This document shows positions 3,639 through 19,657 of a stretch of DNA of 27,035 bases, piece after piece; positions within the stretch are counted from its first letter, which is position 1; every line of letters starts with the position of its first letter. The notes under the pieces were generated by a model. The model saw only the letters and a list, made by a program, of their open reading frames with translations, ran no database searches and was not told the origin of the DNA. The stretch comes from a virus (Duplodnaviria > Caudoviricetes). The stretch is from IMG/VR virus record IMGVR_UViG_3300036770_008716, positions 1 through 27,035 of that record; one strand, 5' to 3'. The translations under genes and the position numbers were made by a program.

Positions 3639-4046
3639 TTATTGCATTCCATCTTGATATGCTTCCATTTCAAATTGAGCTTGTTGTTCGCGCATCTTGT
3701 TTTCGCAGCCAGTAATCCAAGCTGTTCGAGCGCCAGGATTACCAGCATAGGTAGCAGGAACTCGACGCGAGCATGCGCTGTAGAATCCACCTCGACTTGA
3801 GGGAGCATACACTCCTCCGCCATATACTTGGTGTTCCCTGCTATGATTCAGAACAGCATTACCAGCCATGACTCCAAGTACAGCGCCGATGGCTTGCTCT
3901 GACGATGAACCGCCAAGACCATCAGCGATCTTGTAGCCAGCCATACCACCCAGTACTGTCGACATCAGCTGACCCGTGTCTTGAGCTGTTGCGCAGCCAG
4001 AAGTCAGAGCCATCGATGCAAGAAACGCTACAGTCTTGATTTTCAT
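3639..4046 (-). CDS. glycine-zipper 2TM lipoprotein
   Basis: Signal peptide with lipobox LTSG-C, followed by GGMAG...IGAVLGVMAG glycine zipper. Confidence 0.75.
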   Translation of the reverse strand: MKIKTVAFLASMALTSGCATAQDTGQLMSTVLGGMAGYKIADGLGGSSSEQAIGAVLGVMAGNAVLNHSREHQVYGGGVYAPSSRGGFYSACSRRVPATYAGNPGARTAWITGCENKMREQQAQFEMEAYQDGMQ

Positions 4047-4444
4047 TTACCTATCCTCTTTGCAACTTCTGCTACATGTTTGCAGTGCTTGCGATACTCA
4101 AACCCAACACAATTACACTTGAACTTCCCGTTCATGACTCCGACCAGATAGGTGTTGCCCTTAGCCTTGGAAACAACCTTGAATGCTCGGAAGCCAGTGG
4201 GGGCTGCTCGGCCTGAACCTGAGATATATTTGATAGACTCGACATAACGCAGGTCTATGTTCCGAACCCGAATATATTTATCGCCCGTCATGTTGAACGT
4301 GTTCGGGCGGTCCCACTTATCTGTGGGGACAACTCGACCCTCATACACTTCCTGCTTTGGTGGAGGCATATCGGGCCATGCATACCGAAAGTCGGTAGGC
4401 TTGATCGTCACTCGAACGAATGACTCAACGCTGGGCATATTCAC
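4043..4444 (-). CDS. SWIM-type Zn-finger protein
   Basis: C-terminal CNCVGFEYRKHCKH (CxC...CxH). Confidence 0.75.
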   Translation of the reverse strand: MNMPSVESFVRVTIKPTDFRYAWPDMPPPKQEVYEGRVVPTDKWDRPNTFNMTGDKYIRVRNIDLRYVESIKYISGSGRAAPTGFRAFKVVSKAKGNTYLVGVMNGKFKCNCVGFEYRKHCKHVAEVAKRIGK

Positions 4445-4635
4445 AGGACGTAGTTCACCAGTTCGTTTGCATACACTTCGATGGTTTCGGGTCCAAACCT
4501 GGACTCGGTCTCTACGCGAAGAAGGATATGCCCGTTCTCCTCGTAGACTTCCTTGATGCCCACATAAGTCCCCCAGAGGGGATAGAATGCAGTCTTGTAA
4601 AGACGAAGACGCTCGACGCTCATTTCAGTTACCAT
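4441..4635 (-). CDS. hypothetical protein
   Basis: ORF downstream of promoter-like copy 2; start chosen downstream of the -10 box. Confidence 0.55.
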   Translation of the reverse strand: MVTEMSVERLRLYKTAFYPLWGTYVGIKEVYEENGHILLRVETESRFGPETIEVYANELVNYVL

Positions 4636-4654
4636 ATCAGCTTCCACAATATCC

Positions 4655-4713
4655 ATTCTACCGTATTTTTCAACTAAAAATAGCATAAAAACGCCTTATG
4701 AATCAATAACTTA
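4655..4713 (-). promoter_or_regulatory. conserved promoter-like element copy 2
   Basis: AATCAATAACTTA at 4701-4713; two T5 tracts; TAGAAT at 4655-4660 on the minus strand. Confidence 0.7.
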
Positions 4714-4956
4714 GCGACCCATAGCTTCCAGCCAGGATAAAATCTCCCCACTGAGCTCTCTGGCTTTCGGATCCGCGCTCTTCAAATTCATTGTAGCCAG
4801 CTGTTTGGCGGCATTCAATGTTTGCACGATAGCAAATGCATGCTCAACGGTTGGGGGATTATCGTCGATCTTTGAATATTGTTTTTCGCCAAGACGAAGT
4901 TCGAGTGCTCGGACTCTAGCTTCAAGATCAGCGATTTTCTTTTGCATTGGTGTCAT
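4711..4956 (-). CDS. hypothetical coiled-coil protein
   Basis: AGGAG RBS before the ATG at 4956; KIADLEARVRALE heptads. Confidence 0.65.
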   Translation of the reverse strand: MTPMQKKIADLEARVRALELRLGEKQYSKIDDNPPTVEHAFAIVQTLNAAKQLATMNLKSADPKARELSGEILSWLEAMGR

Positions 4957-5132
4957 TGTTGAATTCTCCTGATTAGTTGTTCTCGCTCTTCCCACTCTTC
5001 TCGGTTATAATCTTTGCGCGGATCAAACTTCCATTCCCTTTGGTTCGTTTGTTGTTGGTTTCTCAGGTTTCTTCGGGCACGACGTTCGAATTTATCATCA
5101 TCATAGTCGCGGTAATTTCTGCTTTTACTCAT
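4953..5132 (-). CDS. small highly charged hypothetical protein (59 aa, MSKSRNYRDYDDD...)
   Basis: Read manually. ATGA overlaps at both ends, exactly filling the gap. Confidence 0.6.
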   Translation of the reverse strand: MSKSRNYRDYDDDKFERRARRNLRNQQQTNQREWKFDPRKDYNREEWEEREQLIRRIQQ

Positions 5133-5635
5133 AGGTTTAGTTTGGCTACCTCTTTTTCTCTCAGTTTTAAAATGCGCCTGAACTGTTCATAGGTTCCAAC
5201 GCTCCGACCATAGGCTTCAACTTCCCATGGGCTGTCCCAGTATTCAATAAAGTTATCTGTGTCTTTGTAGATCTTACCTTCATATCGTACTGAGCCATTT
5301 ACATAGTCAAACAGCTGATTGTTGGTATACTGCTTGACATGAATTAGTTCGTGAATAAGAGTAGCCACTATGTCCTTCATTCGAGTATCAATCTTCTTGG
5401 CCTTCTTGACCAATGACTTTTGTATTCTGATCTCAAACTTCTTTCGATCTTGTTCAACCCCAAGATAGCAACACTCACCGCCCCATGTTGCCTTTTTGTC
5501 CTTGATAAGGATCACATCAACGTCAATCTTTCGTTGCTTTGACTTGGTGATGTACTTATCGAGAGTAAACCTGGCTGCAAGTTTCAGGTATAGCATCTCT
5601 TCTTTTGAAAGTTTCTCTCCGCTGAATTTTAGCAT
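5129..5635 (-). CDS. phage zinc metallopeptidase-like protein (HExxH)
   Basis: TLIHELIHVKQ and downstream PWEVEAY; GGGGG RBS; late-promoter motif upstream. Confidence 0.75.
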   Translation of the reverse strand: MLKFSGEKLSKEEMLYLKLAARFTLDKYITKSKQRKIDVDVILIKDKKATWGGECCYLGVEQDRKKFEIRIQKSLVKKAKKIDTRMKDIVATLIHELIHVKQYTNNQLFDYVNGSVRYEGKIYKDTDNFIEYWDSPWEVEAYGRSVGTYEQFRRILKLREKEVAKLNL

Positions 5636-5661
5636 TGAAATACCCCCCGAGGAATCCAAAC

Positions 5662-5669
5662 TATTTATA
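5662..5669 (-). promoter_or_regulatory. T4-type late promoter (TATAAATA)
   Basis: Exact motif overlapping the upstream stop codon, about 27 nt before the ATG at 5635. Confidence 0.6.
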
Positions 5670-6717
5670 CAACCCTTAGCAGGATTGTATCCGCATTAAC
5701 CCTACCATTAAGAAGGGAAGGTTTGGAATTCACCCCATCCATGACCTTTCGTAGAACTAGTTTACCTCCATTGACAACGTCAGGCAAAACTTTTTCGGGC
5801 TTTCGAAGAGTCTTGGATATTGAGGAGCTGGCAGCATAACCCTCGATTGAGGAACCTTTGACCGATAGGCCTGAGGCATCCATGGCCACATAGACCCCGA
5901 GTTTTCGAGTCTTGACGTTATAGACCCAGAGCTGGGAAGCACCGACGATCTTGATAGGATCGACAGACTGCAGCTTTAGTTTGTTATCAGCCTTCATGTA
6001 CTTGATCTTCGAAACTTTCTTCTCGGCTGAGATGGGCTTCTTCTTACGAGGTTTGCGGGCAACCTTCTTGTTCTCAAGGAACTTGCTGGCGTCCGCTACA
6101 ATAGCCCCATAACAGCGAAGCAGATTCATCATACGCTTCTTCGTGTAGCTGGAGTATCCCTCGACCAGATCGGCGTCCTTGCCTTCGGCCGCGAGCATAG
6201 GCTCGGCTGCTTCCTTCTTGAAGTGATTGATGATGAATGGAACATGAGCGGATTTCACTCCGTTATCGGTCATCCACTTGTATGCGTCCATCTTCTGATA
6301 GTTGCCTGTGATGCCATATTCATCGACCAATCCCTCCAGATCAGCAATGAACTGTTGGGCTTTCTGTTCGACTAGCTCCTGGATGTTGACAACTTTTTTG
6401 CTGGCAACGGGAACTGCGAGCTCTTCAATCTTTTTATTGTACTCCTGCTCCATCTTGGCCGCAGTATCGCACTCTGGATGAGGCAGAACGCACCCACGAG
6501 ATACCATGCGCTTAGACCATGCCAGAGTCTCGAAACCTTCAACCCACTTCGGGTTCTTGGCGCCAAGATACTTGGCTGCGTCCTCCTGCTTCATGTTTAC
6601 GCCATACCAAGTCAGCGCTGCACCAATCTGCGCTCGAGTGGCTGGCTTGGTGCTATCCCACGTGGGCTCGTCGCTCTTGTTCTTGGAAATAATACGATTG
6701 CGAGTCTTCGCTTTCAT
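5665..6717 (-). CDS. basic hypothetical protein of T4-like phages
   Basis: 350-aa Lys-rich ORF with LWVYNVKTRKL...SKTLRKP...NGRVN C-terminal motifs; first gene after promoter-like copy 3. Confidence 0.8.
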   Translation of the reverse strand: MKAKTRNRIISKNKSDEPTWDSTKPATRAQIGAALTWYGVNMKQEDAAKYLGAKNPKWVEGFETLAWSKRMVSRGCVLPHPECDTAAKMEQEYNKKIEELAVPVASKKVVNIQELVEQKAQQFIADLEGLVDEYGITGNYQKMDAYKWMTDNGVKSAHVPFIINHFKKEAAEPMLAAEGKDADLVEGYSSYTKKRMMNLLRCYGAIVADASKFLENKKVARKPRKKKPISAEKKVSKIKYMKADNKLKLQSVDPIKIVGASQLWVYNVKTRKLGVYVAMDASGLSVKGSSIEGYAASSSISKTLRKPEKVLPDVVNGGKLVLRKVMDGVNSKPSLLNGRVNADTILLRVV

Positions 6718-6744
6718 GTCTTACTCTCGATGAAACATGATACC

Positions 6745-6804
6745 ATTGTACTAAGATATCTCTAGAAAAACTAGTATAAAAACTCGTTACAAATCAATTA
6801 CTTA
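6745..6804 (-). promoter_or_regulatory. conserved promoter-like element copy 3
   Basis: AATCAATTACTTA at 6792-6804; two T5 tracts; TACAAT at 6745-6750 on the minus strand. Confidence 0.7.
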
Positions 6805-7043
6805 ACGTCGCGCACCGATCCAACCCGAAATGAACGCCACTGATTGACACCAAGATCCCAGACAGCAATGGAATTGCCAGTCTCCTCGGTGAGCATTGGA
6901 GCCTTGTTTCGATATTCTTCAGGCAGGTACTGCGACTGTAGCGTACAACTCATTACTCGAACTGTACCGTCAACCTTTTCAAACGTTACAGACACAACTC
7001 CGTTGCGGAGACGATTGATCAAATCTTCACGTGTAAATAGCAT
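6798..7043 (-). CDS. WYL_2/DUF2693-like Sm/SH3-fold protein
   Basis: VTFEKVDGTVRVMSCTL...VWDL...WRSFR motif. Confidence 0.75.
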   Translation of the reverse strand: MLFTREDLINRLRNGVVSVTFEKVDGTVRVMSCTLQSQYLPEEYRNKAPMLTEETGNSIAVWDLGVNQWRSFRVGSVRDVK

Positions 7044-7044
7044 A

Positions 7045-7422
7045 TCACTTTGCCTCTTTCAGATATTTACGAACTAGTTTATCACTAAATCCAAACATTT
7101 CCAACAACTCAAACAATGCAGTTTTTATATCATCTATTTTATGCGAGTTTACTCGAAACATCAAGCCAGAATATCCTGACTTACCCATACGCTCAACATA
7201 CCCCATCTCGTCGCCAATGATAGCCGAGAACAACTCCGCTTTATCTCGCTCTTCTTGTTCTTTAAACAGCAGAATATTGTACTTATACCCCAAATCAGTT
7301 TTTCTATCTTTTTTCTTTTTATCAGTTAACTTAACATATCTTGAGTTCATATACTCTAAGTTCAATTGATACCAAATAATCAAATCGCAATCAGCAACAG
7401 CTTGCTTCTCTTCTTCGGTCAT
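7045..7422 (-). CDS. hypothetical protein
   Basis: 125-aa ORF, translationally coupled by a TAATG overlap. Confidence 0.65.
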   Translation of the reverse strand: MTEEEKQAVADCDLIIWYQLNLEYMNSRYVKLTDKKKKDRKTDLGYKYNILLFKEQEERDKAELFSAIIGDEMGYVERMGKSGYSGLMFRVNSHKIDDIKTALFELLEMFGFSDKLVRKYLKEAK

Positions 7423-7841
7423 TATTTTTCCTTAAGATGTTTGGCATGTATTTTACAGCCAATGAATTCATTATAATAGTCATCGCTCAACAACACATCT
7501 TTCTCGAACTGTAGCTTTGCTTCCCAGTAGGACATTGAGCCCTTTGATTCACACAGCTTCAGTATTTCTCTCTTAAACAACTTAGATCCTTTCTTTTCAA
7601 CAAGAAGTTTAACCTGCTCACTAGAACTATAATACTCTTTCCAGTCGGATTCGTCAACTTTTTTTCTGCGCTTGGTTTTACCTTTGAGAGGCGGGAGCTT
7701 TCTGACTGATATGAAGTTCTTTTTGCCGATATATTTCTTCCCAGTCTCAAGGTTGGTAATTTCATATACAAAGCCCTGAGCTGTTCCAATCATCTCAGAA
7801 GTAAATGGTTTGCCTTGATACAACCAAGGATTATCATACAT
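7422..7841 (-). CDS. short GIY-YIG (Seg-like) endonuclease
   Basis: GFVYEITN...KKYIGKK, WKEYYSSS, FKREIL, E and YYN motifs. Confidence 0.85.
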   Translation of the reverse strand: MYDNPWLYQGKPFTSEMIGTAQGFVYEITNLETGKKYIGKKNFISVRKLPPLKGKTKRRKKVDESDWKEYYSSSEQVKLLVEKKGSKLFKREILKLCESKGSMSYWEAKLQFEKDVLLSDDYYNEFIGCKIHAKHLKEK

Positions 7842-8157
7842 CTCTAGTGATCGATGTTATCTTGTCAATTTGAGCTTGAATGATAGGAACTCGATTTTCC
7901 CACTTGATGTAGGCTTTATCAGGATTCTTCATAAGGTTATAAAGCAGGGGCAGAATTAAACCTTCTACCTCTTTGAGTTTGGCTTTGTAGAATGCTTCGA
8001 TATACTGAGACTGCTGTGTCAGAACACCATCAATCTTATCCTGCAAAACTTTCAGATCATCAGTTGTTGCGACTGGCTGCGTTGTTGTTTGGGTTGCTGT
8101 TGTTGCTGCTTCTTCAGCATCAGCAAAAGAGAATCCAAAGTCATAGTCTCCGCTCAT
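7834..8157 (-). CDS. conserved T4-like phage hypothetical protein
   Basis: DFGFSF N-terminus and ILPLLYNLMKNPDKAYIKW.NR motif. Confidence 0.7.
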   Translation of the reverse strand: MSGDYDFGFSFADAEEAATTATQTTTQPVATTDDLKVLQDKIDGVLTQQSQYIEAFYKAKLKEVEGLILPLLYNLMKNPDKAYIKWENRVPIIQAQIDKITSITRDV

Positions 8158-9135
8158 TTAAACCTCAATCAAATTTTGATGAAAGATATTCCAACATGCT
8201 TCCCAAGACCATTCCTTAGTATTTATTCTACCAAGTTCAAAGCATCTATCAATAGCTGTTTCTAGGTTATCGTCAAGAATTCCGTTTATGCCAGAATCAA
8301 CAATATCGATTGGACCGACTACTGGGAATGCAGCAACAGGAGTTCCTGCACTCATCGCCTCTACCATAACAATACCAAAAGTATCCGTCTTACTCGGAAA
8401 ACAAAATACAGATGCATTTAGATAATATTGGAACAGTTCTTTCCCTGTTTTGTATCCAACAAACTTTGCCTTTTTATATTTTTGTTCTAAATGTTTCCTG
8501 TCTGGTCCATCGCCAACAATAACTATGTTATACTTGTCTTGGAGTTTCAATAATTCTTCTATGTTCTTTTCCTTCGAAACCCTTCCAACAAAAAGCACTG
8601 AGTTATCTGGCGCTCTTTCAAGTCCAGTTAGATTGGACATATCAACTCCCCGAGTCCACTCTACTATATTACCATCAAATTTATTCTCGATCAGAAGAGA
8701 CTTCATTGATTTTGTTGTTGTCAGAACAACCCCAGAATGCTTATGGAACCAACGAAGATATTTGTATGTGTAATCTGTTGGTATACCATACAAACTCTTC
8801 ATATATTCTGGAAATTTAGTATGATATGATGTATTATACCATAGATTATTTCTATCACAGTATAACTTAGCTGCTAGACCAATTGGCCCTTCGGTGGCAA
8901 TGTGAATATAATCGGGTTGTATTGATTCAATTTTTCGGCTGATTCTAAACGGAAAAGCCAGTTTGATCTCTTTGTAGGCAGGAAAAGAAAAATGAAAGAA
9001 TTCGCTAGGGTCGAGAAAGTGCATCTCATACCCAGAGCGTTCAGCTTCCTTAGCAAGGTGCTTAAAAGTGATAGCCACTCCATTGATTTGATCCTTTAGA
9101 TTGTCAGTAACAACTAAGATTCTATGTTTGCCCAT
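8158..9135 (-). CDS. agt: GT4 (GT-B) glycosyltransferase, Agt-like diacylglycerol glycosyltransferase
   Basis: ILVVTD...QINGV, IHIATEGPIG, TSYHTKFPEY, WTRGVD, FVGRVSKEKN, FPSKTDTFGIVMVEAMSAGTPV. GT4 call is firm; the Agt call rests on motif resemblance and adjacency to the plcP-like gene. Confidence 0.75.
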   Translation of the reverse strand: MGKHRILVVTDNLKDQINGVAITFKHLAKEAERSGYEMHFLDPSEFFHFSFPAYKEIKLAFPFRISRKIESIQPDYIHIATEGPIGLAAKLYCDRNNLWYNTSYHTKFPEYMKSLYGIPTDYTYKYLRWFHKHSGVVLTTTKSMKSLLIENKFDGNIVEWTRGVDMSNLTGLERAPDNSVLFVGRVSKEKNIEELLKLQDKYNIVIVGDGPDRKHLEQKYKKAKFVGYKTGKELFQYYLNASVFCFPSKTDTFGIVMVEAMSAGTPVAAFPVVGPIDIVDSGINGILDDNLETAIDRCFELGRINTKEWSWEACWNIFHQNLIEV

Positions 9136-9860
9136 GTCACTATCTGCCATTGTCCATCTGTATGTTCTACCAAAGCAGTTAGCGATTCGACCCAATCGCC
9201 ATCATTCATGTATATGATTCCATCTATTTCTTTAATTTCAGCATGATGGATGTGACCGCAGATAACCCCATCAAAACCTCTTTTTTTACAATAAGAAGTT
9301 AAATTATTCTCAAACTTATACATAAATGCTATTGCTTGTTTCACTTTATGTTTAAGATAACTGGAAAGCGACCAGTATCCAAATCCAAGTTTTCTTCTGA
9401 GCCAATTGAACTTTGAGTTTAGCGTTAAAACAAAATCATAGGATCGATCGCCGAGAAAGCTAACCCAAGGGACGATTCTGTTGATTCCATCGAACATATC
9501 ACCATGAACTACAAGATATCTTTTCTGATCTATTCCGATGTGCTCATACTGATTTGCTATTTCTATATTACCAAAAGAAAACTCATAGGGCATAAATGTT
9601 CTGAGAAACTCATCGTGGTTACCAGCAACATAGATTACCTTGGTTCCTTTCTTTGCATAGCTTAGGATCTTTCTAACTACATTGGTATGGTTCTGATCCC
9701 ATCTCCACCTATTCTGTTGGATCTTCCAACCATCAATTATATCACCAATCAGATACAATGTGTCACAGGTATTATTTTTGAGAAAATCTAAAAGATGAAG
9801 AGCCTTACAATCTTTCGACCCTAAGTGTACGTCTGATATGAATATACTTCTAAAGTGCAT
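9114..9860 (-). CDS. plcP: calcineurin-like metallophosphoesterase, PlcP-like phospholipase C (often annotated LpxH-like)
   Basis: ISDVHLG, GDIIDGW, GNHDE, HGD, GHIHH, NDGDWVES motifs, with GNHD rather than the GNRD of E. coli LpxH; YWSLS...KVK segment typical of the PlcP group. Confidence 0.78.
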   Translation of the reverse strand: MHFRSIFISDVHLGSKDCKALHLLDFLKNNTCDTLYLIGDIIDGWKIQQNRWRWDQNHTNVVRKILSYAKKGTKVIYVAGNHDEFLRTFMPYEFSFGNIEIANQYEHIGIDQKRYLVVHGDMFDGINRIVPWVSFLGDRSYDFVLTLNSKFNWLRRKLGFGYWSLSSYLKHKVKQAIAFMYKFENNLTSYCKKRGFDGVICGHIHHAEIKEIDGIIYMNDGDWVESLTALVEHTDGQWQIVTWANIES

Positions 9861-11587
9861 TAGTCAAAAAAGAATAGATGGAACAATCTGGAATCATCAA
9901 TGGTCTTACCAAAGTATTTAGACGCCGAGTGGAAGCACCTTGCATCAAAAAGAACTAATCGATTAAACACATTACCAATAGTATCAACCAATTCGAATTT
10001 AGTCTGATCGTAGAATCCACCAGCAAAACTTCTATCCTCTGGATCTTGATCAACATGTCTAGCATTAGTTATTCTGCTAGCCCACAAAGAAGTCCCACAA
10101 TCATATGGTGCGTTTGGCGTCAAATAAATCATACCAGCCCAAGTCTGAGAATCATAATGATAGACTAGCAGATCTTCAGGCGTACAATATTGGAAACTGC
10201 CATTCATTCCGTGCGATTCCCATTCGCGAATCTTAATGCCCATTATATTTTCAAATGCTTCTTTGATCTCAGTTGGTCTATATTTCTCAATAGATCTACT
10301 ACCTTTGTACCAGTTATTGTTTGCTTCAAATGCTGACCCAAGAGCAAAATTCCGAACCGCAATCGGATCAGCATAAAAATCATCAACAACAAAAATTCTT
10401 TTCTTTCTGTTTGGGTTAACTGTTAATTGATTTTTGAGTTCGCAGTAGTTCATCGATTCTTCCTTTTTGGTTGCGTTTTGTAGTGCAACATTATGCAGGT
10501 TTTTGGGATATTCACTGGTATCGTGATACATGTCAGTGCTGATAATAAACACAAAGTCGGGAAATGGCATGGTTCGTTCAGGTTTCATTATCTCTGTTGT
10601 ATATTTCAGCATCTCATCAAAATCACCAAGATGCATATACGTTTCTGCTAACCAAATTAGATGATCGTTTCTACGAGAACAAAAAGGTTCCGCTCTTTTG
10701 AAATATTCTATAGCCTTTTCTGTTTGGCCAAGAAATCGATAAGAATTTCCAATGCTATTCATAGCATAGTATCCCATCTCACAAAGCCTATTTGGTTGAT
10801 TTGTTCTATCGTAGTCGTGTTGAAAATTTACCCATTCCTTATAATAAAATATAGACCTTTCGGCATAATGCCTTTGTTGCTTTTCCCCCAAAGGAAATGA
10901 TTGGCATTTAAATGCATCCTCATAACTCTTACCAATATACCAAAAATGATACCAGTCTTTAAACAAACTCTGCTCACGAATCAATTTTTCTTCTAGAGCC
11001 AAAGCATCACTAACATATTTTGTGGGCAATACATAACTTTCGCCCCTAACTGAATCATCAGCTTTCATCCTAAATTCTTTAGGCAACGAATGCATACTGA
11101 AATTTTCATTTGTTACACCATCATCTAAATAAATTGTTTCATGTGCTGGGTCATGGTGAAATTTCCAATTCAATTTAGCATTCCATATCCAAGTTCTTTG
11201 GTAAATAATACCAGGTCCTAATGCTGCAACAGAAAATGCAGTTATATTTGTATCATCAAAAATAGACCAATCGAAACTAGGATCCACTTCAAGGACTTCA
11301 TCGCAATCCATTTTCATGATCCAGTTGCAACCATGATTTAAACTCTTGGCTCTTTGTAACAAATGATCTCTGTTCCAACCAAACCCAACCCAACCTTCTT
11401 CTACTTTATAAAGGTGCCCATCTATTCTATATTTCATTGCCCATTCTTTAACTACTTCTGGCGTACCATCAGTTGAGCCATTGTCTTGAATGACCCAATA
11501 GTCAATATATGGAGCTACAGATTCAAGCATTCTCCCTATGCTATGAGCTTCATTTTTAAACATGGTGATCATACATATTTTTTTCAT
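9860..11587 (-). CDS. fusion: GT2 glycosyltransferase + TPR + C-terminal 2OG-Fe(II) oxygenase-like (DUF6445-like) domain
   Basis: N-terminal MFKNE, DNGSTDGT, DCDE. Middle TPR-like helices (IGNSYRFLGQTEKAIEYFKRA). C-terminal VVDDFY, HYD, YLTP, NRLVLFD, FHS and R. Confidence 0.8.
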   Translation of the reverse strand: MKKICMITMFKNEAHSIGRMLESVAPYIDYWVIQDNGSTDGTPEVVKEWAMKYRIDGHLYKVEEGWVGFGWNRDHLLQRAKSLNHGCNWIMKMDCDEVLEVDPSFDWSIFDDTNITAFSVAALGPGIIYQRTWIWNAKLNWKFHHDPAHETIYLDDGVTNENFSMHSLPKEFRMKADDSVRGESYVLPTKYVSDALALEEKLIREQSLFKDWYHFWYIGKSYEDAFKCQSFPLGEKQQRHYAERSIFYYKEWVNFQHDYDRTNQPNRLCEMGYYAMNSIGNSYRFLGQTEKAIEYFKRAEPFCSRRNDHLIWLAETYMHLGDFDEMLKYTTEIMKPERTMPFPDFVFIISTDMYHDTSEYPKNLHNVALQNATKKEESMNYCELKNQLTVNPNRKKRIFVVDDFYADPIAVRNFALGSAFEANNNWYKGSRSIEKYRPTEIKEAFENIMGIKIREWESHGMNGSFQYCTPEDLLVYHYDSQTWAGMIYLTPNAPYDCGTSLWASRITNARHVDQDPEDRSFAGGFYDQTKFELVDTIGNVFNRLVLFDARCFHSASKYFGKTIDDSRLFHLFFFD

Positions 11588-13260
11588 CTATTAACTCCAA
11601 TATATTTGCCAAATTCTATTTCAAAAGTTTTGATTATATTATCTGTTGACCACTTAGATCTAAACTCATTAGTTGGTTCCAATCCCCTTTCTATAACTTC
11701 TTTTATAGTGTTGCAATCAAACAACAATTCTTCTTTCCAATTTATATTATTAAAACTTTTGCTTCTATTAACCATCAAAGGTTTTTCTGCCATTAAAGCA
11801 AAATCAACGCAGCTACTTATTCCTGGGCCAACATCATGATATAAGAACAAATTAATATCATTAGAGTTTAAAAATCTAACAGTATCCTCAATATTCATAT
11901 AGTCATGGCTAATGTTTATTATAACGTTAGGGTTGGCTAATTGCCTACATTTTTCTGCTATGACATGAGAAGTTCCTCGCTCAATACTATACTCGAAATA
12001 ATCAGCATATGATATATTAAAATTTATCATTACGGGTTCAGAAAATTGTTGATTTACAGCTTCAACTATGCCTGTGAAATTTTTATTCCACCCACCAAAT
12101 CCAAAGCTACCAATTTTAATAACATTTCCTGGTGGGTTATTGTCCAGATTCTCGAACTTTACCAGAGGCCTTTCTAATGCTATTTTTCCATCTTGTTCTA
12201 TAGTTGGGTCGCAAACAAAATGTTGCTTGATATTTGCAAACTCATAAATTGAGCCATGTCCAGTTATGACAAAATTTGGAATATCTTCTTGTTTGATTTT
12301 GGATAAACAATTCATCATCCAACCAAATGGGCCACAATTCCATATCACCCCATCATATTCTCTATCAAACTTTGAAATGAATTCTTCTTCGCTGGAAGCC
12401 TCAATTAAAACATACTCATACCTATTTGATTTTTGTAGATTTTGTAGAGTTAATTTGCCATATTCATACACTCCACATTTACTTGCAGAATTCATTACAA
12501 AGGCAATCCTACGCTTCTTGCTAAGTTCAGAGAAATGCTTTCTGGACTTTTCCAGAATTTCTTGATATGGAACATCGCCCAAATCGTCGTAATATCTGTT
12601 TCTCCAGGTGTTGTAGAAACTATATGCTTTTGGATTGCCAGAGCCTATCCATAATTCGCACAAATATGGTTGCCATTGAACGTTTTGATTGAAGTATGTA
12701 GGATCAAGTTTGTTTAGATAATTGGCGTTGGCCCACCAAAAAAATCCTTGGTAGTGTGGCGCAGGAAATTCAATTTCTCCACCTCGGAACGTTGCTAGAG
12801 GGATATATTCAACGCCAGCGCAATCATAATGTTCAAGGGCATTGATACAATCTTTCCAATTATGGATAAGAATTTTTTCGAAATACATTCTGAATTGCGC
12901 AGACCTTTTGCCTATCTCTGAATCCCTAGAAACACCTAGCGAGTGAAAAAACAATATCTTATATTCTGGATTCGCAGCAGAAAAAGCCCATATTCTCTGC
13001 ATAATTTGATTATAGGCTCTATACAATTTTCTATTTGTTGGGCGATCCTCTTCTAAGTCACCAAGATAAGTTATGTTATTTACTTTATCGGAAATTTTAT
13101 CCAAAGAAACAGGAGATTGCCCTTTAACAAACAAATCAATAAATTCTATATTGTCATAGAGCCCACTTGTTTTAATTGAATTGATCTGTTCATCGTACAA
13201 AGCATTCCAATTATCATCACCGCCATATTGGCCTATCATGTAGAAAATTGCAATTTTCAT
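11584..13260 (-). CDS. two-domain glycosyltransferase-like fusion protein
   Basis: N-terminal HSLGVS...HYQGFFWWANANYL...ELWIG domain; C-terminal GT-B-like domain (CGVYEYG, IGSFGFG..NKNF, GISSCVDFAL). Confidence 0.65.
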   Translation of the reverse strand: MKIAIFYMIGQYGGDDNWNALYDEQINSIKTSGLYDNIEFIDLFVKGQSPVSLDKISDKVNNITYLGDLEEDRPTNRKLYRAYNQIMQRIWAFSAANPEYKILFFHSLGVSRDSEIGKRSAQFRMYFEKILIHNWKDCINALEHYDCAGVEYIPLATFRGGEIEFPAPHYQGFFWWANANYLNKLDPTYFNQNVQWQPYLCELWIGSGNPKAYSFYNTWRNRYYDDLGDVPYQEILEKSRKHFSELSKKRRIAFVMNSASKCGVYEYGKLTLQNLQKSNRYEYVLIEASSEEEFISKFDREYDGVIWNCGPFGWMMNCLSKIKQEDIPNFVITGHGSIYEFANIKQHFVCDPTIEQDGKIALERPLVKFENLDNNPPGNVIKIGSFGFGGWNKNFTGIVEAVNQQFSEPVMINFNISYADYFEYSIERGTSHVIAEKCRQLANPNVIINISHDYMNIEDTVRFLNSNDINLFLYHDVGPGISSCVDFALMAEKPLMVNRSKSFNNINWKEELLFDCNTIKEVIERGLEPTNEFRSKWSTDNIIKTFEIEFGKYIGVNR

Positions 13261-13264
13261 GCCA

Positions 13265-14524
13265 TTAGATACTCAATAGATGAGGCCTGCGTTTGTCAGA
13301 CTTGACTGCAACTAGCCATGCATTAGTTACGGCGATTTGATCTTCCCACCAAATAGTATCAAGCCTGAACGACTGGAATCTAACATCTTTGTTGCGAATG
13401 AACATTGCTTTATCAGCTCTGGTGTAATACCAGAAACTATTTTGGTTCCAGTAACTAACATGAGTTGGATCTTGGAATGCTCCTCTACCGTCTGTGCTAG
13501 GAACTTCAATAAAAGCCCAACCACCATCAGCTAAAACCCGATATATCTCACACATTATTTTATGTTTATCGTGAAGATGCTCAATTATATGCGATGCGTT
13601 TAACACACCGACTGAATTATCAGGAAGTGGTATACCATCATTAAGATCAGCCTTAACGTTGCCTTCTTCTAAATCAATATTAATATCACATCCATCTCTT
13701 GGATTGATGCCGCCTCCAATTTCTACGATCGAAAGGTTGCGATCTCTTGCGTCTTTGCAAGCAAGATCCCATGCATGTTTTTGAAACAGTTCTACAGTAG
13801 TATCTTGTATTTGCTGATTTCTTTCAAGCCAAGTATTGTCACCAGTGATTCGATAGATATACAATGCTTTTGGTATGTGATGCATTTTTGTTTTAAGATA
13901 AGTTCGAATCATTAGCTCATGATCATCACAAATACTTAATCTTGGATCATGGCCCCCAATTTCTCTATAGACAGACTTGCGCCATGCGCGAACATGGTCT
14001 GGGGCGTACCAAATGAAAGATATACTATGGCTTGTTGGTTGGAAAGAATCCATTGCGATAAGTTTTTTACCTTTCCAATCAACTTCTTTATATGTCCATC
14101 CATATATGGAATTGTATGGATAAAACACATCAGTCATATGATATACTGCACAATCGCTAAAAGCAAATCCAACATCTTTATCTTGGAATGCTTCATTTAG
14201 TTCTTCAAGACAATTAGGCATCAATATATCATCATGATCAACTTCAACAAGAATATCACCTTCGCCAAGATTAAATGCTTGGTGTTTATTGAATCCGACG
14301 CAGTTGTTATCAAATCCACTTTTGTAGATAGATACCCGAGAATCTTCCCTGATTCTCGGGGGAACTTTATCAGGTGAACCAACACCATTAAGATAAATTA
14401 CCCACTCCCAATTTTCATAAGTTTGCTCAACCAAACTATCATAAAGATCATCAAGAAAAGAATTCTTAATGTGTGTTGGTGTAATAATACTAAACTTATG
14501 AAGTTTCACTTTATTTGATTTCAC
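13265..14524 (-). CDS. fusion: GT2 glycosyltransferase + class I SAM-dependent methyltransferase
   Basis: FSIITPT, QTYENWEWVI, VDHDD, IGG, DD.EL; C-terminal EIGGG, ADLN.GIPLPDNS, HIIEHL, EIYRVL.DGG, DPTH. Confidence 0.85.
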   Translation of the reverse strand: MKSNKVKLHKFSIITPTHIKNSFLDDLYDSLVEQTYENWEWVIYLNGVGSPDKVPPRIREDSRVSIYKSGFDNNCVGFNKHQAFNLGEGDILVEVDHDDILMPNCLEELNEAFQDKDVGFAFSDCAVYHMTDVFYPYNSIYGWTYKEVDWKGKKLIAMDSFQPTSHSISFIWYAPDHVRAWRKSVYREIGGHDPRLSICDDHELMIRTYLKTKMHHIPKALYIYRITGDNTWLERNQQIQDTTVELFQKHAWDLACKDARDRNLSIVEIGGGINPRDGCDINIDLEEGNVKADLNDGIPLPDNSVGVLNASHIIEHLHDKHKIMCEIYRVLADGGWAFIEVPSTDGRGAFQDPTHVSYWNQNSFWYYTRADKAMFIRNKDVRFQSFRLDTIWWEDQIAVTNAWLVAVKSDKRRPHLLSI

Positions 14525-16364
14525 ATGCTCCTCCTGCGCAAGCTGCCTGATCGGTCAGCGCGGTGTTATCGTCATATTCATGGACTTGAGAAAGATCAAT
14601 ATCATGTAGATGTTTTACCATCTCCTCAAATGTCTCACGGGTGCAGTCTTCGAATGGGGCTTGGACATAGGTTCCGCCATCATATGGAAGAACTGATATT
14701 CCCGTGTAGTTATCCCTGTTATCCCACATCCATTCTCCAACTGGTCCCCACTCATCTTCTCTAAGAGAAATGGTGCAAGATACGTTGTGGAAATTAGCGC
14801 CTGTACGATGTCCATTGCGAACCCACTCCATATTAAATTTCTTAACACGCTCAAGCAAATGCAGAGCACTCTCAGAACGAAGGATGGCTCCTTCGGGCGC
14901 TCTCTGAGGAATCGAGAGCACTGCCTCAAGGTGAGGCTTGAATACACAATCTTCAATCAAAGTTGGGAAGTTACTCTTTATATAGTTGTACATCGCTTCG
15001 TTCTTTCCAACACGCATGCGTCGAATATAATAGTCATTGTGCCATGCGTGAATACCAGAAGATGATCCAACTACAAGAGAGGTTGTGCCTGATGGTTTGA
15101 TCGTCGTTGTTCTCGCTGCGCAGTTTACGCCGATCTGATCAGCGATTTCTTTGTTTGCTTTTTTTACAACTTTTGCTGCTTCTTCAAGATTCAGATTAAT
15201 AACACCACCAGATGCGATACCCGTCATGCCAACGCCAATCAATGCTTCTTCTTCGGTAGTCTCTTTCCAGACATTACGAAGATAGTGGAAGTCGGTGTAT
15301 CCTGCCTGAAGCGTACCAATAAATGCGCCTGCTGCTGCTCTTGCGTTCAAATCTGCCTGATCATGAACATCAGATACATTAACTTCGGTCAGGTTACAGA
15401 ACTGATATGGGCGAAGTGAAATCTCTGCGCATGGATTGGTGAACAGTTCTTCATCGTTGGTCCAGAAGAATCCAGGCTCACCTGCTCCTGACAATTTAAC
15501 AAGATCCCAGATATGCTTGAACTCTTCTTCGGTTACTTTACCACGACGAAGTACAACTGAGTTGTTGGCTCGACCACGCTGCGGTGCATTCTCCCACCAT
15601 GCACCTGACTTGCAAGAAAGCATGTCATAGTCATCAAGGCTAAAACCCGCAATCATTGCAGCTCGACGAATGCCACCTGCAAGAACAGCGTCAGCAATAA
15701 AGCAGCAGATATCGTGAACTTCAATTGTCTTGAGCTTACGGCCAATTGCGCCATTGAGAATCTGGCGAATCTGATCAATACAGATACGCAGCGGATCTGG
15801 ACCAGGAGCTTTACCGCCGCTCGTTACAAGCAAAGCGCCCTTGGGTCGAATGTCTCGGAAATCAAATACGGGGTCAGACTTACCTGTTGTATAGGCTTTG
15901 ACTAGAACTTTAATTGCATCAGCCCAGCCTTCGATGGAATCGCCAACAAGAAAACGTCGCTGCTTCTCTGATGGCCCAACAATTGCAGGTAGTTTCTCAA
16001 CGTGATGTTTCTGTACGCTATAGCCAACTCCAGTACCACCAAGAAGCAAGAACATCAGTTCAGCAAATGCAACTGGATGTTCAATTGGCATATATGCACA
16101 GTTGAAGATGCGTGAGTTAGAAAGTTCAATTGGCATACCAGCGAACTGCATTGAACGCATTGAAGGAAGAACTTTCTTGGTGTATACAAATTCTTTATAC
16201 ACATTTTTAATTTCTGATTTGATACTTGGGTACTTCTTCATGTGCATAACCATGTTACGCTCACACAGTTCTTCCCAAGTCTCTCGGCGATTGATCTCGG
16301 GAATAAACTTGGCATACTTATTGAAAACAACAATATCTGAGAGAATTGACTGGGTTACATCCAT
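14511..16364 (-). CDS. nrdJ: class II (adenosylcobalamin-dependent) ribonucleotide reductase, monomeric type
   Basis: LPSMR, FNC, GTGVG, GGIRRAA, TNPCAEI, FCNL, TTIKPSGT and C-terminal CAGGAC; compact 617 aa; no nrdB alongside. Confidence 0.9.
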   Translation of the reverse strand: MDVTQSILSDIVVFNKYAKFIPEINRRETWEELCERNMVMHMKKYPSIKSEIKNVYKEFVYTKKVLPSMRSMQFAGMPIELSNSRIFNCAYMPIEHPVAFAELMFLLLGGTGVGYSVQKHHVEKLPAIVGPSEKQRRFLVGDSIEGWADAIKVLVKAYTTGKSDPVFDFRDIRPKGALLVTSGGKAPGPDPLRICIDQIRQILNGAIGRKLKTIEVHDICCFIADAVLAGGIRRAAMIAGFSLDDYDMLSCKSGAWWENAPQRGRANNSVVLRRGKVTEEEFKHIWDLVKLSGAGEPGFFWTNDEELFTNPCAEISLRPYQFCNLTEVNVSDVHDQADLNARAAAGAFIGTLQAGYTDFHYLRNVWKETTEEEALIGVGMTGIASGGVINLNLEEAAKVVKKANKEIADQIGVNCAARTTTIKPSGTTSLVVGSSSGIHAWHNDYYIRRMRVGKNEAMYNYIKSNFPTLIEDCVFKPHLEAVLSIPQRAPEGAILRSESALHLLERVKKFNMEWVRNGHRTGANFHNVSCTISLREDEWGPVGEWMWDNRDNYTGISVLPYDGGTYVQAPFEDCTRETFEEMVKHLHDIDLSQVHEYDDNTALTDQAACAGGACEIK

Positions 16365-16369
16365 TGTTC

Positions 16370-17038
16370 TTATCCTTCTACGAGTTCTTTAATTAGTGGA
16401 AATTGTTTTACTAACACTTCTGCACATTGCTTTGCAATCTCAGCATGCTCAAGTTGCGTCCCGTTCTTGGAACGGAGTTGTATATAGTGAATCCATGAAC
16501 GAAGTGTACCAGCCATATAGAGTCTTGATGCAGTCAACCCTTCGGGAAGCACTGCTCTTGCTTGCTCTTTGGCAATACCATTTTCAATAGCCCAATCATA
16601 AACTATTTTTGCCTGTTCAATCACTTGATCCTGATAGGCTTTCCATTCTTGCTCAAGATTGTAGTTGTCTGTCTTGATGCTGTTCTGCCTATTAACTGGA
16701 TCCTGTAGTCTAGCCTCACGCTTTACCATTTGCATTTGAGTTGGATCAGCATAACGCTGAGAAAACTCTTGAAAACTAAAACTGCGATGACGAAGAATCT
16801 GTCGAGCAATGTCTCTGGTCGTATTGATCTCAAGCGTAGCATGGACCATTTCAAACGGCGACCAGTGAGCGTTCTTAATCAAATAGTTAATCAACTTTGG
16901 TGCTGTCATTGTATTGGTTTGGTTTGATGGATTAGATACACGAGCAAAGTATGCTGTGAGTTCTTCCATCGTACCAATATCAGTCTCATCAAAAAAACTT
17001 GATGTTGCTTGGCTGAAACAAATCAATCTAACGCTCAT
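16370..17038 (-). CDS. thyX: flavin-dependent thymidylate synthase
   Basis: HWSPFE, RHRSFSFQEFSQRY signature, EQARAVLP, TQLEH. Confidence 0.95.
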   Translation of the reverse strand: MSVRLICFSQATSSFFDETDIGTMEELTAYFARVSNPSNQTNTMTAPKLINYLIKNAHWSPFEMVHATLEINTTRDIARQILRHRSFSFQEFSQRYADPTQMQMVKREARLQDPVNRQNSIKTDNYNLEQEWKAYQDQVIEQAKIVYDWAIENGIAKEQARAVLPEGLTASRLYMAGTLRSWIHYIQLRSKNGTQLEHAEIAKQCAEVLVKQFPLIKELVEG

Positions 17039-17039
17039 A

Positions 17040-18065
17040 TCAACACCTCTTCCAATTTATGAATTCCATCATAGCTCGACTGCCGCTGTATGTTCTTTGT
17101 TCTACTATCTTCTTCACATCTATACCAGCCAGCACCATATCATTAATATCTTTCTCTACAATTCCGTTCGGCCAAATCACAACATTATACCCGAGTTCAA
17201 TCGAGTTAGCTAATGTTTTTACGATCTCACGATTCCTCGGTTCATTATCATAAACTAGAACAACGTTGACGTTACTGCCGAAGTAATCTGCCACATTACA
17301 TAACCCACTGTCCCCAGAAGCAACAGCATTATCCAAAAAATAGCTGTCGAATTGCCCCTCGGTGATGTAGATTGTTTTTTCTTTGTCGGTTCTTTCGAGG
17401 CCATAGATTTTTTTCCCTTCGACGACTTTGATTGTGATGTATCGGAGTTTTGTGTCACTTAATGCTCTCCCAGAAATATTGGTAATGTTGCCCTCTTCAT
17501 CCCTATAAACTAGGATGATTCTGTCATCTTCTGGTAGATTTTCTTTTCCATGATCTGGGAAATCATGGAATAAAAAATCCCTGAAGTTCTCTGTATAGTA
17601 AATGTCATTCCACCGACCTTCAGGGATTCCCCTCTTGATTATATATTCGCGGGCATAGTGTCCAGGTTCAAGTTCAGAGATGTTTTTTAGATTAATTTTT
17701 GGAATAGATTTCTGAGTTGCAAACCTAGCAAAAGCATTGCCCTTCAGTTCATCAAATGATGGTTTCTTGTAATTGCTGTGGCCATTATCACCAGCTGCAT
17801 ATCGCTCAAGCACATATTGTTTGTGTGAGCTGAGGTCTACTTGCTTGAGGAAATTTGAAAATGAAGTGCTAACTGAACAGTTGTGACAACGATAGAAATA
17901 GTCGTTGTTCTTGCGGTAGATATAACCACGCGCTTTCAGTTTGTTCTTTGACGAGTCGCCGCAGAATGGACATCTGAAGTTGAAGAGATCCGTGTTCTTC
18001 TGAGTAAACCTTTCAAGTTTATGACTAATAGTAGAAAGATACTTTCTATCAATATAGACAGACAT
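17040..18065 (-). CDS. 61: DNA primase (T4 gp61-like)
   Basis: N-terminal Zn finger CPFCGDS...KARG...CHNC; TOPRIM motifs EGQFDS, YDNEPRN, KDINDM. Confidence 0.93.
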   Translation of the reverse strand: MSVYIDRKYLSTISHKLERFTQKNTDLFNFRCPFCGDSSKNKLKARGYIYRKNNDYFYRCHNCSVSTSFSNFLKQVDLSSHKQYVLERYAAGDNGHSNYKKPSFDELKGNAFARFATQKSIPKINLKNISELEPGHYAREYIIKRGIPEGRWNDIYYTENFRDFLFHDFPDHGKENLPEDDRIILVYRDEEGNITNISGRALSDTKLRYITIKVVEGKKIYGLERTDKEKTIYITEGQFDSYFLDNAVASGDSGLCNVADYFGSNVNVVLVYDNEPRNREIVKTLANSIELGYNVVIWPNGIVEKDINDMVLAGIDVKKIVEQRTYSGSRAMMEFINWKRC

Positions 18066-18108
18066 AAAATCACCATAATATTATCAGTCAACATAGTATA
18101 TACTATTT

Positions 18109-18510
18109 TTACTGCTGAGACAAAACTTCTTCGAAGATGAATGGATTGGTTCTGCCGAAGTTACGAAGCATGATGCCAGCCTGACTGTTAGCCTCGTTTT
18201 CGATATCACTTCCTGTGTTACCTGAATCATCAAAAAGTCTACCATCTCGATCTTGCTTACAGTGGACCATCTCGTGGGCTAGTGTTCGGAGGATGTCCGC
18301 AACGTGCCTTTCAGCTATGTTGACGTTGATTTTATTTTGCCCAACGTAGTATGACCCAAAACTTCTGTGTTCTTTTGCAAGTTTCTTATCATTCACCAGA
18401 TTAATCTCTGGCGCAGTACCTAATTCTAGCGTATCGCAAGCATAAGATACAAAACTATTTATAATATCGACTTTTCTTTGCTCTGCAATATACTGTTTGA
18501 ATGTTAACAT
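18109..18510 (-). CDS. HExxH metallopeptidase-like protein with internal-protein-like N-terminus
   Basis: LRTLAHEMVH..Q and ENEAN; N-terminus MLTFKQYIAE. Confidence 0.7.
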   Translation of the reverse strand: MLTFKQYIAEQRKVDIINSFVSYACDTLELGTAPEINLVNDKKLAKEHRSFGSYYVGQNKINVNIAERHVADILRTLAHEMVHCKQDRDGRLFDDSGNTGSDIENEANSQAGIMLRNFGRTNPFIFEEVLSQQ

Positions 18511-18894
18511 TTAATCTCCAAAAAATCCTGAGAATTTGGAAATTACCCAGCTGACGATTGCAGCTGCCCCTACGACCATCCATCTCCACTTATCCAGTTC
18601 GGCTATCTTTGCTCTTTCGATTTCGTGTTGTTTTTTCATATCTTCTCTGAGCAAATGCATTTCTTCCATAATCTTAGTTTCAACTTCTGTAATTTTGCTA
18701 TAGACATCCTTTAGATCTTGGTTTGTTTCGTTTCTTCTATCTTCCATTAACTTCTGAACCTTGTCGAGTGTGTCATCAAACTTTTGGTAGATGACGGAAA
18801 AGAAAGAGATTTTCTCTTTCATTGCACTCAATTCGACTTCTAGCTTTGTGAGCTTTGCGTCGTACATTCTGCGTTCTTGATAATCATCGCTCAT
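18511..18894 (-). CDS. coiled-coil protein with C-terminal transmembrane helix
   Basis: Heptad-rich body followed by KWRWMVVGAAAIVSWVI. Confidence 0.7.
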   Translation of the reverse strand: MSDDYQERRMYDAKLTKLEVELSAMKEKISFFSVIYQKFDDTLDKVQKLMEDRRNETNQDLKDVYSKITEVETKIMEEMHLLREDMKKQHEIERAKIAELDKWRWMVVGAAAIVSWVISKFSGFFGD

Positions 18895-19647: not shown

Positions 19648-19657
19648 AAAGCCCTAT

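What the first reader, a model, noticed from the sequence alone, without database searches (positions are those of the whole stretch)
8158..9860. Phage-encoded PlcP-Agt-like cassette: possible viral remodelling of host membrane lipids to release phosphate
Seen: an overlapping gene pair encoding a metallophosphoesterase (DVH/GD/GNHD/HGD/GHIH, NDGDWVES) followed by a GT4 enzyme (HIATEGP, YHTKFPEY, DTFG..EA). Known: in SAR11, roseobacters and rhizobia, phospholipase C PlcP cleaves phospholipids to diacylglycerol under P starvation, and the often adjacent Agt glycosylates DAG to P-free glycolipids. PlcP has GNHD where E. coli LpxH has GNRD. Inference: the phage may mine host phospholipids for phosphate to feed dNTP synthesis, since the pair lies in the same co-oriented, tightly coupled gene run as nrdJ, thyX and primase. 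Glycolipids would back-fill the membrane, or alter it to exclude superinfection. I do not know of this pair being characterised as a phage auxiliary metabolic system, but I could not check the literature.
Basis: partly seen in the sequence, partly recalled or inferred. Interest (0 to 1): 0.9.

Follow-up and report, generated by a model that had tools for sequence, protein, structure and literature searches.

The report
Phage-borne PlcP-Agt membrane lipid-swap genes
An uncultured T4-like groundwater phage carries intact relatives of the two bacterial enzymes that swap phosphate-containing membrane lipids for sugar lipids, so it likely remodels its host's membrane and probably recovers phosphorus from it during infection, although this copy has no recognisable phosphate-starvation switch in front of it.

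Summary
Observation confirmed. 9114-9860(-) is a PlcP-family phosphoesterase: 54% identical to the P. aeruginosa PlcP orthologue and 21% to E. coli LpxH, with GNHD instead of LpxH's GNRD. 8158-9135(-) is an Agt-type GT4 in which 14 residues reported as essential in SAR11 Agt can be placed by motif. The locus is phage DNA, not a chimera. IMG/VR holds at least 441 related stretches. In 70 of 80 fetched loci plcP is followed by a glycosyltransferase (Agt 42, a small GT2 28), and both genes are under purifying selection. Syntenic phages carry a second plcP lineage in other slots, and one sister pair differs by a clean plcP insertion. A phospholipid-to-glycolipid swap is therefore likely. Phosphorus recovery as its purpose is inferred. 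Nine literature searches found no description of the pair in a phage. This scan has already reported the same module on other phage DNA many times.

The parts
9114..9860 (-). plcP: PlcP-family metallophosphoesterase (predicted phospholipase C), 248 aa
   Evidence: 54% to the P. aeruginosa plcP-locus protein, 48.5% to the S. meliloti orthologue; 21% to E. coli LpxH; GNHD; falls with PlcP, apart from three LpxH
8158..9135 (-). agt: Agt-type GT4 (predicted diacylglycerol glycosyltransferase), 325 aa from the likely ATG at 9135
   Evidence: 36% to P. aeruginosa Agt1; 14 of 14 GTcp essential residues placed by motif; groups with plcP-linked bacterial GT4s, apart from other GT4s
9114..9135 (-). 22-nt overlap of the plcP stop and the likely agt start (translational coupling inferred)
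   Evidence: sequence
9860..11587 (-). upstream neighbour: GT2 + TPR + DUF6445 protein; its stop overlaps the plcP start (TAATG), so plcP has no intergenic promoter region
   Evidence: beside plcP only in this phage among 80 loci
11584..13260 (-). island gene, probable GT-B glycosyltransferase fusion (context, not part of the module)
   Evidence: no Pfam or PHROG hit; Atlas look-alikes are glycosyltransferases (lead only)
13265..14524 (-). island gene, GT2 + methyltransferase (context)
14511..18065 (-). primase, thyX and nrdJ: conserved phage backbone upstream of the island (context)
7834..8157 (-). conserved small phage gene marking the downstream edge of the island (context)
   Evidence: tblastn relatives in 15 other IMG/VR loci; several keep primase-thyX-nrd upstream

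Best explanation
This T4-like phage carries an intact plcP-agt gene pair, a likely host-derived module that is predicted to convert host membrane phospholipids into phosphorus-free glycolipids during infection, probably to recover phosphorus for phage DNA. Steps: (1) both genes would be transcribed within the phage's co-oriented gene run and translationally coupled (inferred from the overlaps); (2) PlcP, a binuclear metallophosphoesterase, would cleave phospholipids to diacylglycerol plus a phosphorylated head group (inferred from orthology); (3) Agt would add glucose, galactose or glucuronate from host UDP-sugars to the diacylglycerol and so refill the bilayer (inferred from residues and orthology); (4) host enzymes would free phosphate from the head groups for nucleotide synthesis (inferred, the weakest step). 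Shown here: the genes, their families, their phage context, their spread and purifying selection.
For: Orthology: 54%/48.5% to the P. aeruginosa and S. meliloti PlcP orthologues, which are 46.6% identical to each other, matching the 46% given for PA3219 vs S. meliloti PlcP in PMC8528852. LpxH's diagnostic Arg80 (PMC5016852) is His here; 63 of 63 viral rows have GNHD. IQ-TREE separates three LpxH from the PlcP group with 100% support. The GTcp essential residues of PMC8231724 are placed 14 of 14. The plcP->agt order matches the bacterial 'type 2' layout of PMC4796936 and the P. aeruginosa locus. A glycosyltransferase follows plcP in 70 of 80 viral loci. dN/dS is 0.02-0.06 for plcP (9 of 11 pairs; 2 saturated) and 0.06-0.17 for agt (8 of 8 pairs). 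Phosphate link in relatives: Pho-like boxes upstream in 27 of 77 loci vs 0 of 77 inside the gene and a shuffled mean of 0.3; a PstS-type gene within 8 kb in 7 of 80 loci, directly after plcP in L176, and a 'phosphate ABC transporter' gene beside it in pelagiphage Mosig. A rough budget with my own assumptions gives about 4 virions' worth of DNA phosphorus from half the lipid phosphorus of a small cell and about 19 in an E. coli-sized cell.
Against: No activity, lipid or expression data. This copy has no Pho box: best upstream PWM score -6.3 against 13.6-25.5 for training sites, and the best site in the whole window (9.5) lies within the shuffled maxima of 7.9-13.3. No pstS or phoH was found among the ORFs scanned in about 59 kb of an estimated 175-180 kb genome. 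50 of 77 relatives also lack a strict box. 8 of 80 loci have plcP with no glycosyltransferase behind it, and L168 has plcP alone. Chromosome and rRNA hold more phosphorus than lipids in the same estimate. The fold search ranks LpxH first, and no PlcP structure came up to compare. The host is unknown and may have its own plcP-agt.
Confidence: 0.68

Rival explanations
1. Same chemistry, different purpose: the phage changes the host membrane to alter receptor or porin function (superinfection exclusion), lysis timing or survival of the infected cell, and any phosphorus gain is incidental.
For: No Pho box in this copy. It sits among surface/glycan genes. PMC9804370 proposes that lipid renovation could change phage binding (passages). 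The lipid phosphorus pool is smaller than the nucleic acid pools.
Against: Relatives tie plcP to Pho-like boxes (27 of 77) and to PstS-type genes. The glycosyltransferase partner is interchangeable (GT4 or GT2) while plcP is constant, which points to phospholipid cleavage as the selected step.
Confidence: 0.18
2. The pair belongs to the surrounding glycosylation island and acts on another substrate: the GT4 glycosylates virion proteins, LPS or DNA, and the phosphoesterase trims nucleotide-sugars.
For: Three glycosyltransferase-like genes lie directly upstream. The same phage has a Tet/JBP-TAGT cluster and sugar-nucleotide genes. Generic GT4 PHROGs give weak hits.
Against: The upstream island genes accompany plcP in none of the other 79 loci, whereas the plcP-glycosyltransferase link holds in 70 of 80. 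The GT4 keeps the Agt-specific DAG-binding residues His, Thr-Arg and Trp and the DTFG motif.
Confidence: 0.08
3. The phosphoesterase is a true LpxH that supports host lipid A synthesis, as database labels state.
For: JGI, GenBank and PLSDB label relatives 'UDP-2,3-diacylglucosamine hydrolase'. LpxH is the top fold hit and the top NCBIfam hit.
Against: The NCBIfam scores are 48.9 and 39.9 bits against cut-offs of 134 and 190. Identity to E. coli LpxH is 21%. His replaces Arg80. The same label is put on the P. aeruginosa plcP orthologue. Genomes G152 and G072 hold a true LpxH over the cut-off as well as a separate PlcP-type gene.
Confidence: 0.04
4. The pair is host DNA joined to the phage by misassembly, or is the flank of a provirus.
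For: IMG/VR classes the record as 'provirus'.
Against: Single 35,471-bp contigs span 4000-20000 with no differences and flat depth in two runs (these may be the source of this DNA). A fourth run, not flagged as a source, bridges both junctions (9102-10799; 7192-8819). Phage genes flank both sides. GC and GC3 match the neighbours. The nearest proteins are viral (69-79%); the best of 401 Pseudomonadota genomes is 59%.
Confidence: 0.02

Closest known systems
Bacterial PlcP-Agt lipid-renovation pathway: P. aeruginosa PA3219/PA3218 (PMC8528852), SAR11 HTCC7211 PB7211_983/PB7211_960 and Phaeobacter MED193_17359 (PMC4796936, PMC8231724), M. trichosporium OB3b plcP-agt (PMC9239053)
   Same: Gene order plcP->agt with overlap; 54% / 36% identity to the P. 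aeruginosa-locus proteins; all metal-site motifs; all 14 GTcp essential residues placed by motif.
   Different: Phage-borne; belongs to a phage-specific clade (100% support); no Pho box in this copy; in relatives the partner is often a small GT2 or absent; 20 of 34 viral Agt rows have Glu at the GTcp Asp256 position, against 1 of 39 bacterial rows.
LpxH (UDP-2,3-diacylglucosamine hydrolase; E. coli b0524, P. aeruginosa PDB 5B49)
   Same: Calcineurin-like fold with a helical insertion (Foldseek E about 1e-11, TM about 0.6).
   Different: 21% identity, His for Arg80, far below family cut-offs, separate clade.
Pelagiphage Mosig EXVC030M gene Mosig_00120 (MT647606)
   Same: PlcP-type protein (49-50%, GNHD) in a cultured T4-like phage, next to a phosphate ABC transporter gene.
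   Different: Annotated as LpxH-like; no Agt in the 12.7-kb region read; a different branch of the tree. PMC9004378, which covers Mosig, has 0 occurrences of 'lipid' or 'lpx'.
Phage phosphate-acquisition auxiliary genes (pstS, phoH; phoH in PMC9004378, pstS in cyanophages recalled)
   Same: Host-derived phosphate-stress genes in variable slots of T4-like genomes.
   Different: Those genes import or sense phosphate; this pair would draw on an internal store, the membrane.

Membership tests
PlcP phospholipase C | Calcineurin-like metal motifs D-x-H, GD, GNH(D), H, GHxH | tested here: met
PlcP phospholipase C | Groups with orthologues of characterised PlcP (P. aeruginosa, S. meliloti), apart from LpxH | tested here: met
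PlcP phospholipase C | Mn-dependent release of diacylglycerol from phospholipids | not testable with these tools
   needs an assay; the Mn paper PMC6052262 was not held
Agt / GTcp diacylglycerol glycosyltransferase (GT4) | GRVAXEKN and FPSXTDTFG motifs; G16, G82, G85, H104, T162, R163, R190, K195, D256, T257, F258, G259, E264, W320 | tested here: met
   GRVSKEKN and FPSKTDTFG; G19, G83, G86, H105, T161, R162, R185, K190, D251, T252, F253, G254, E259, W311. Placed by motif and spacing, because the GTcp sequence itself was not available; Leu56 was not mapped
Agt / GTcp diacylglycerol glycosyltransferase (GT4) | Groups with plcP-linked bacterial GT4s, apart from other GT4s | tested here: met
   (FastTree 0.89 for the Agt group against four outgroup GT4s; moderate support)
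Agt / GTcp diacylglycerol glycosyltransferase (GT4) | Makes MGDG and/or GADG from DAG and a UDP-sugar | not testable with these tools
   needs lipidomics; even P. aeruginosa Agt1 and Agt2 differ in product
PlcP-Agt lipid-renovation operon | plcP directly upstream of agt | tested here: met
PlcP-Agt lipid-renovation operon | Pho box upstream, induced by phosphate starvation | tested here: not met
   no box in this copy; present in 27 of 77 viral relatives. I therefore file it as a variant, not as a Pho-regulon member
LpxH | Arg at the GNRD position that binds lipid X | tested here: not met
   GNHD
LpxH | Score over the TIGR01854 / PRK05340 cut-off | tested here: not met
   39.9 < 190.35 and 48.9 < 134
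T4-like phage genome | T4 replication core (gp43, gp41, gp61, gp44/62, gp45, RegA, UvsX) | tested here: met
   (window and record G004, which matches all 13 window proteins tested at 100%)

The most novel reading that the evidence does not exclude
Tailed phages have repeatedly captured PlcP and paired it with interchangeable glycosyltransferases, making the host membrane a phosphorus store that viruses routinely liquidate. This copy, which lacks a Pho box and is wired into the phage's own gene run, would remodel the membrane on the lytic timetable whatever the host's phosphate status. Infection itself would then be a source of environmental glycolipids and of 'plcP' reads now used as a biomarker of bacterial phosphorus stress.
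Probability: 0.3. Interest if true: 0.82.

Novelty: new variant of a known kind. Interest (0 to 1): 0.6.

Why it matters
Known phage phosphate genes bring phosphate in from outside; this module would tap an internal store and change the membrane of the infected cell. It is common (at least 441 IMG/VR stretches) yet hidden under the label lpxH, so auxiliary-gene surveys may file it under lipopolysaccharide synthesis (a Lake Baikal virome table lists 'lpxH' that way, PMC9611531; I did not see that sequence). plcP transcription has been proposed as a biomarker of phosphorus limitation in bacteria (PMC9239053), and viral copies would confound that. The hypothesis can be tested now: both enzymes have simple assays, non-pathogenic mutant hosts exist, and a cultured phage (Mosig) carries a plcP-type gene.

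Tried and rejected
LpxH assignment rejected. Chimera rejected. Pho box search in the window: none above shuffled background; the degenerate pattern was written after looking at relatives' upstream regions, so the 27 of 77 count is partly fitted, with shuffles as the control. A TAAATA hexamer at 9920, 60 nt before the plcP start, could be a late promoter, but 18 such hexamers lie on this strand, so I give it no weight. Co-location with nrdJ as evidence: 0 of 79 loci fetched through nrdJ relatives hold plcP (many are short fragments). Against that, L168 has plcP between primase and thyX, and a family I recognise as the ribonucleotide reductase small subunit (not scanned) occurs in 22 of the 86 loci clustered, with no null model. 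L085 and L086 (in bacterial MAGs) fall inside the viral clade and are probably mis-binned phage contigs (not proven). Independent capture of the two viral plcP lineages from bacteria is not shown: the branches between them have 78-82% support and I ran no clade test. No RNA holder listed. The AlphaFold model (pLDDT 79.7, pTM 0.76) and Foldseek cannot separate PlcP from LpxH. The Agt pattern scan of IMG/VR found only 8 relatives because it uses exact words. Xanthomonas phage X1's 'lpxH' (PMC13384950) did not come up; I did not check whether that record is in the collection. PMC6052262 (PlcP catalytic residues) was not held. No supplementary files were read; AMG tables in supplements could list this gene.

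Full report
OBSERVATION. The two ORFs lie on the minus strand at 9114-9860 and 8158-9195. The GT4 most likely starts at the ATG at 9135 (325 aa), overlapping the phosphoesterase stop by 22 nt. The phosphoesterase start overlaps the stop of the gene before it (TAATG), so the pair has no intergenic promoter region.

THE DNA IS PHAGE. I scanned the 43 minus-strand ORFs that form the gene run (of 133 ORFs listed). They include primase, thyX, nrdJ, a GH19 endolysin, an Rz-like spanin, a GIY-YIG nuclease and virion proteins. IMG/VR record G004 matches all 13 window proteins tested at 100%. Its further 32 kb (38 of 53 listed ORFs scanned, overlapping and opposite-strand ones left out) adds T4-type DNA polymerase, helicase, clamp, clamp loaders, RegA and UvsX. 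CheckV figures of 15% and 31% complete imply about 175-180 kb. The four strong holders are subsurface metagenomes of one study. Two runs, possibly the source of this DNA, give one 35,471-bp contig over 4000-20000 with flat depth and no differences. A run not flagged as a source bridges both edges of the pair. IMG/VR labels the record 'provirus'; I saw no host-like block to explain that label.

THE PHOSPHOESTERASE IS PlcP-TYPE. I fetched a P. aeruginosa locus in which this gene is followed by a GT4 and then cyaB, and an S. meliloti locus. I took them as the PA3219 and S. meliloti PlcP orthologues; their mutual identity of 46.6% matches the 46% in PMC8528852 (passages). The window protein is 54% and 48.5% identical to them and 21% identical to E. 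coli LpxH. PMC5016852 (passages) states that LpxH has Arg where other metallophosphoesterases have His; the window protein and 63 of 63 viral rows have GNHD. LpxH family scores are far under the cut-offs. A 38-sequence IQ-TREE tree separates three LpxH from the PlcP group at 100% and puts the window protein in a phage clade at 100%; a 129-sequence FastTree tree agrees. The predicted structure matches LpxH best, as expected for a sister family; no PlcP structure came up in the PDB. This test does not discriminate.

THE GT4 IS Agt-TYPE. It is 36% identical to P. aeruginosa Agt1. PMC8231724 (passages) lists residues whose mutation inactivates SAR11 GTcp; 14 of 14 can be placed by motif and spacing in the window protein, including His105, Thr161-Arg162, Asp251 and Trp311. 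It groups with plcP-linked bacterial GT4s, apart from four outgroup GT4s (support 0.89). Which sugar it adds cannot be read from sequence.

SPREAD AND SELECTION. A word-based scan of IMG/VR found 441 of 444 candidate stretches to be relatives; 80 were fetched, at 69-79% identity apart from the identical record, with 62 distinct proteins. Bacterial homologues occur in 124 of 401 Pseudomonadota genomes and reach 59% at best. Behind plcP lie an Agt-type GT4 in 42 of 80 loci, a small GT2 in 28, no glycosyltransferase in 8, and 2 loci end too soon. The flanking genes vary widely. dN/dS is 0.02-0.06 for plcP (9 of 11 pairs, 2 saturated) and 0.06-0.17 for agt (8 of 8). Among 50,697 GenBank phage records, 5 match plcP, the best being pelagiphage Mosig (50%, labelled LpxH-like, beside a phosphate ABC transporter gene); none has an Agt-level match (best full-length matches about 26%).

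A MOBILE GENE IN THIS PHAGE LINEAGE. Fifteen other loci were fetched through the small gene 7834-8157; several keep the primase-thyX-nrd backbone. Five of the 15 carry plcP, but of a second lineage (56% identity; clade support 96%) and in other slots: between primase and thyX (L168), after the WYL-like gene with a GT4 (L171, L172), and after a carbamoyltransferase, in L176 directly before a PstS-type gene. L169, a close sister of L168, has primase joined directly to thyX. The slot that holds the pair in the window is filled by other glycosyltransferase-type genes in L168, L169 and L171 and is nearly empty in L170, L176 and L178. So the position next to nrdJ is a hypervariable island, and it says little about dNTP supply.

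PHOSPHATE CONTROL. A Pho-like 11-bp-spaced direct repeat lies within 200 nt upstream of plcP in 27 of 77 viral loci, against 0 of 77 inside the gene and a shuffled mean of 0.3 (the pattern was partly fitted to these regions). A PstS-type gene lies within 8 kb in 7 of 80. This copy has no box (best score -6.3), and the best site in the whole window is within background. No pstS or phoH was seen in the ORFs scanned over about 59 kb, but two thirds of the genome is missing.

MECHANISM. Shown: intact genes, families, phage context, spread, selection. Inferred: PlcP cleaves host phospholipids to DAG and a phosphorylated head group; Agt glycosylates the DAG so the bilayer holds until lysis; host enzymes free the phosphate. 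A rough budget with my own assumptions (three phospholipid leaflets, half the area lipid, 0.65 nm2 per lipid, 180-kb genome) gives about 4 virions from half the lipid phosphorus of a small cell and about 19 in an E. coli-sized cell, less than the nucleic acid pools taken together but not negligible. I put the enzymology at about 0.9 and the whole explanation, with phosphorus recovery as the main purpose, at 0.68. The main rival is membrane alteration for other ends (0.18).

LITERATURE. Nine full-text searches returned no paper whose listing or searched passages describe plcP or plcP-agt in a phage. I read keyword passages, not whole texts, of PMC4796936 (0 hits for phage/viral), PMC8528852 (0 for phage), PMC8231724, PMC13691135, PMC9239053, PMC5016852, PMC9804370 (host remodelling and phage binding only), PMC9457565, PMC6030836, PMC9004378 (Mosig; 0 for lipid/lpx), PMC9611531 and PMC13384950 (both list a viral 'lpxH' under LPS or cell-wall synthesis) and PMC12837969 (lpxH in a table of host-type virulence gene names). 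Subscription journals and supplements were not seen, so absence from print is not proven. Earlier notes of this scan report the same module on other phage DNA in 14 distinct findings shown to me; these are unchecked AI notes and are not counted as evidence.

VERDICT. A real, intact, phage-borne variant of the bacterial PlcP-Agt pathway. It works like that pathway and meets its sequence and gene-order criteria, but not the Pho-box criterion. What this window adds is a Pho-box-less copy from groundwater and evidence that one phage lineage carries two plcP lineages in several slots. Novelty: new variant of a known kind. Interest 0.6.

Noticed in passing
viral Agt homologues, e.g. L005, L009, L016, L048: 20 of 34 distinct viral Agt rows have Glu (ETFG) at the GTcp Asp256 position, against 1 of 39 bacterial rows. 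D256E cut GTcp activity by more than 90% in PMC8231724, so this viral subgroup may have another donor or product. The window copy keeps Asp.
   Followed up: partly
L129:1387-4381 (same phage, record G004): Tet/JBP oxygenase, TET-associated glycosyltransferase and a further GT-like gene in a row: a probable DNA cytosine hypermodification cluster (the system is known to me from recall).
   Followed up: partly
L129:11959-15198 and L130:2-5524 (same phage): Sugar-nucleotide island: RmlC-like epimerase, GDP-mannose 4,6-dehydratase, two C-methyltransferases and a GT2.
   Followed up: no
window 9860-14524: Three glycosyltransferase fusions (GT2-TPR-DUF6445; a 558-aa probable GT-B fusion with no Pfam hit; GT2-methyltransferase) of unknown target.
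   Followed up: partly
L168:1437-2210 vs L169:2238-2240: Clean presence/absence of a lone plcP between primase and thyX in two sister phages.
   Followed up: yes
e.g. L019:8714-9364, L068, L048: A small BPL_N-domain gene lies within 8 kb of plcP in 22 of 80 viral loci, often next to it; role unexplained.
   Followed up: no
L028:8737-9624, L046, L047, L072: A RimK-type ATP-grasp ligase sits directly behind plcP, in two cases between plcP and agt.
   Followed up: no
L082 (Synechococcus phage S-SRM01, MW015081:210536-211240): A divergent PlcP-like protein (36%, GNHE) in a cyanophage, although PMC4796936 reports PlcP as largely absent from cyanobacteria.
   Followed up: no
L085, L086: Contigs in bacterial MAGs whose plcP falls inside the viral clade; probably mis-binned phage DNA.
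   Followed up: partly
window 7422-7841: Free-standing SegE-type GIY-YIG nuclease one gene downstream of the pair; the syntenic loci L168-L178 lack a match to it.
   Followed up: no
window 18511-20296: Lysis block (GH19 endolysin, Rz-like spanin, weak holin-like hit) directly upstream of the primase.
   Followed up: no
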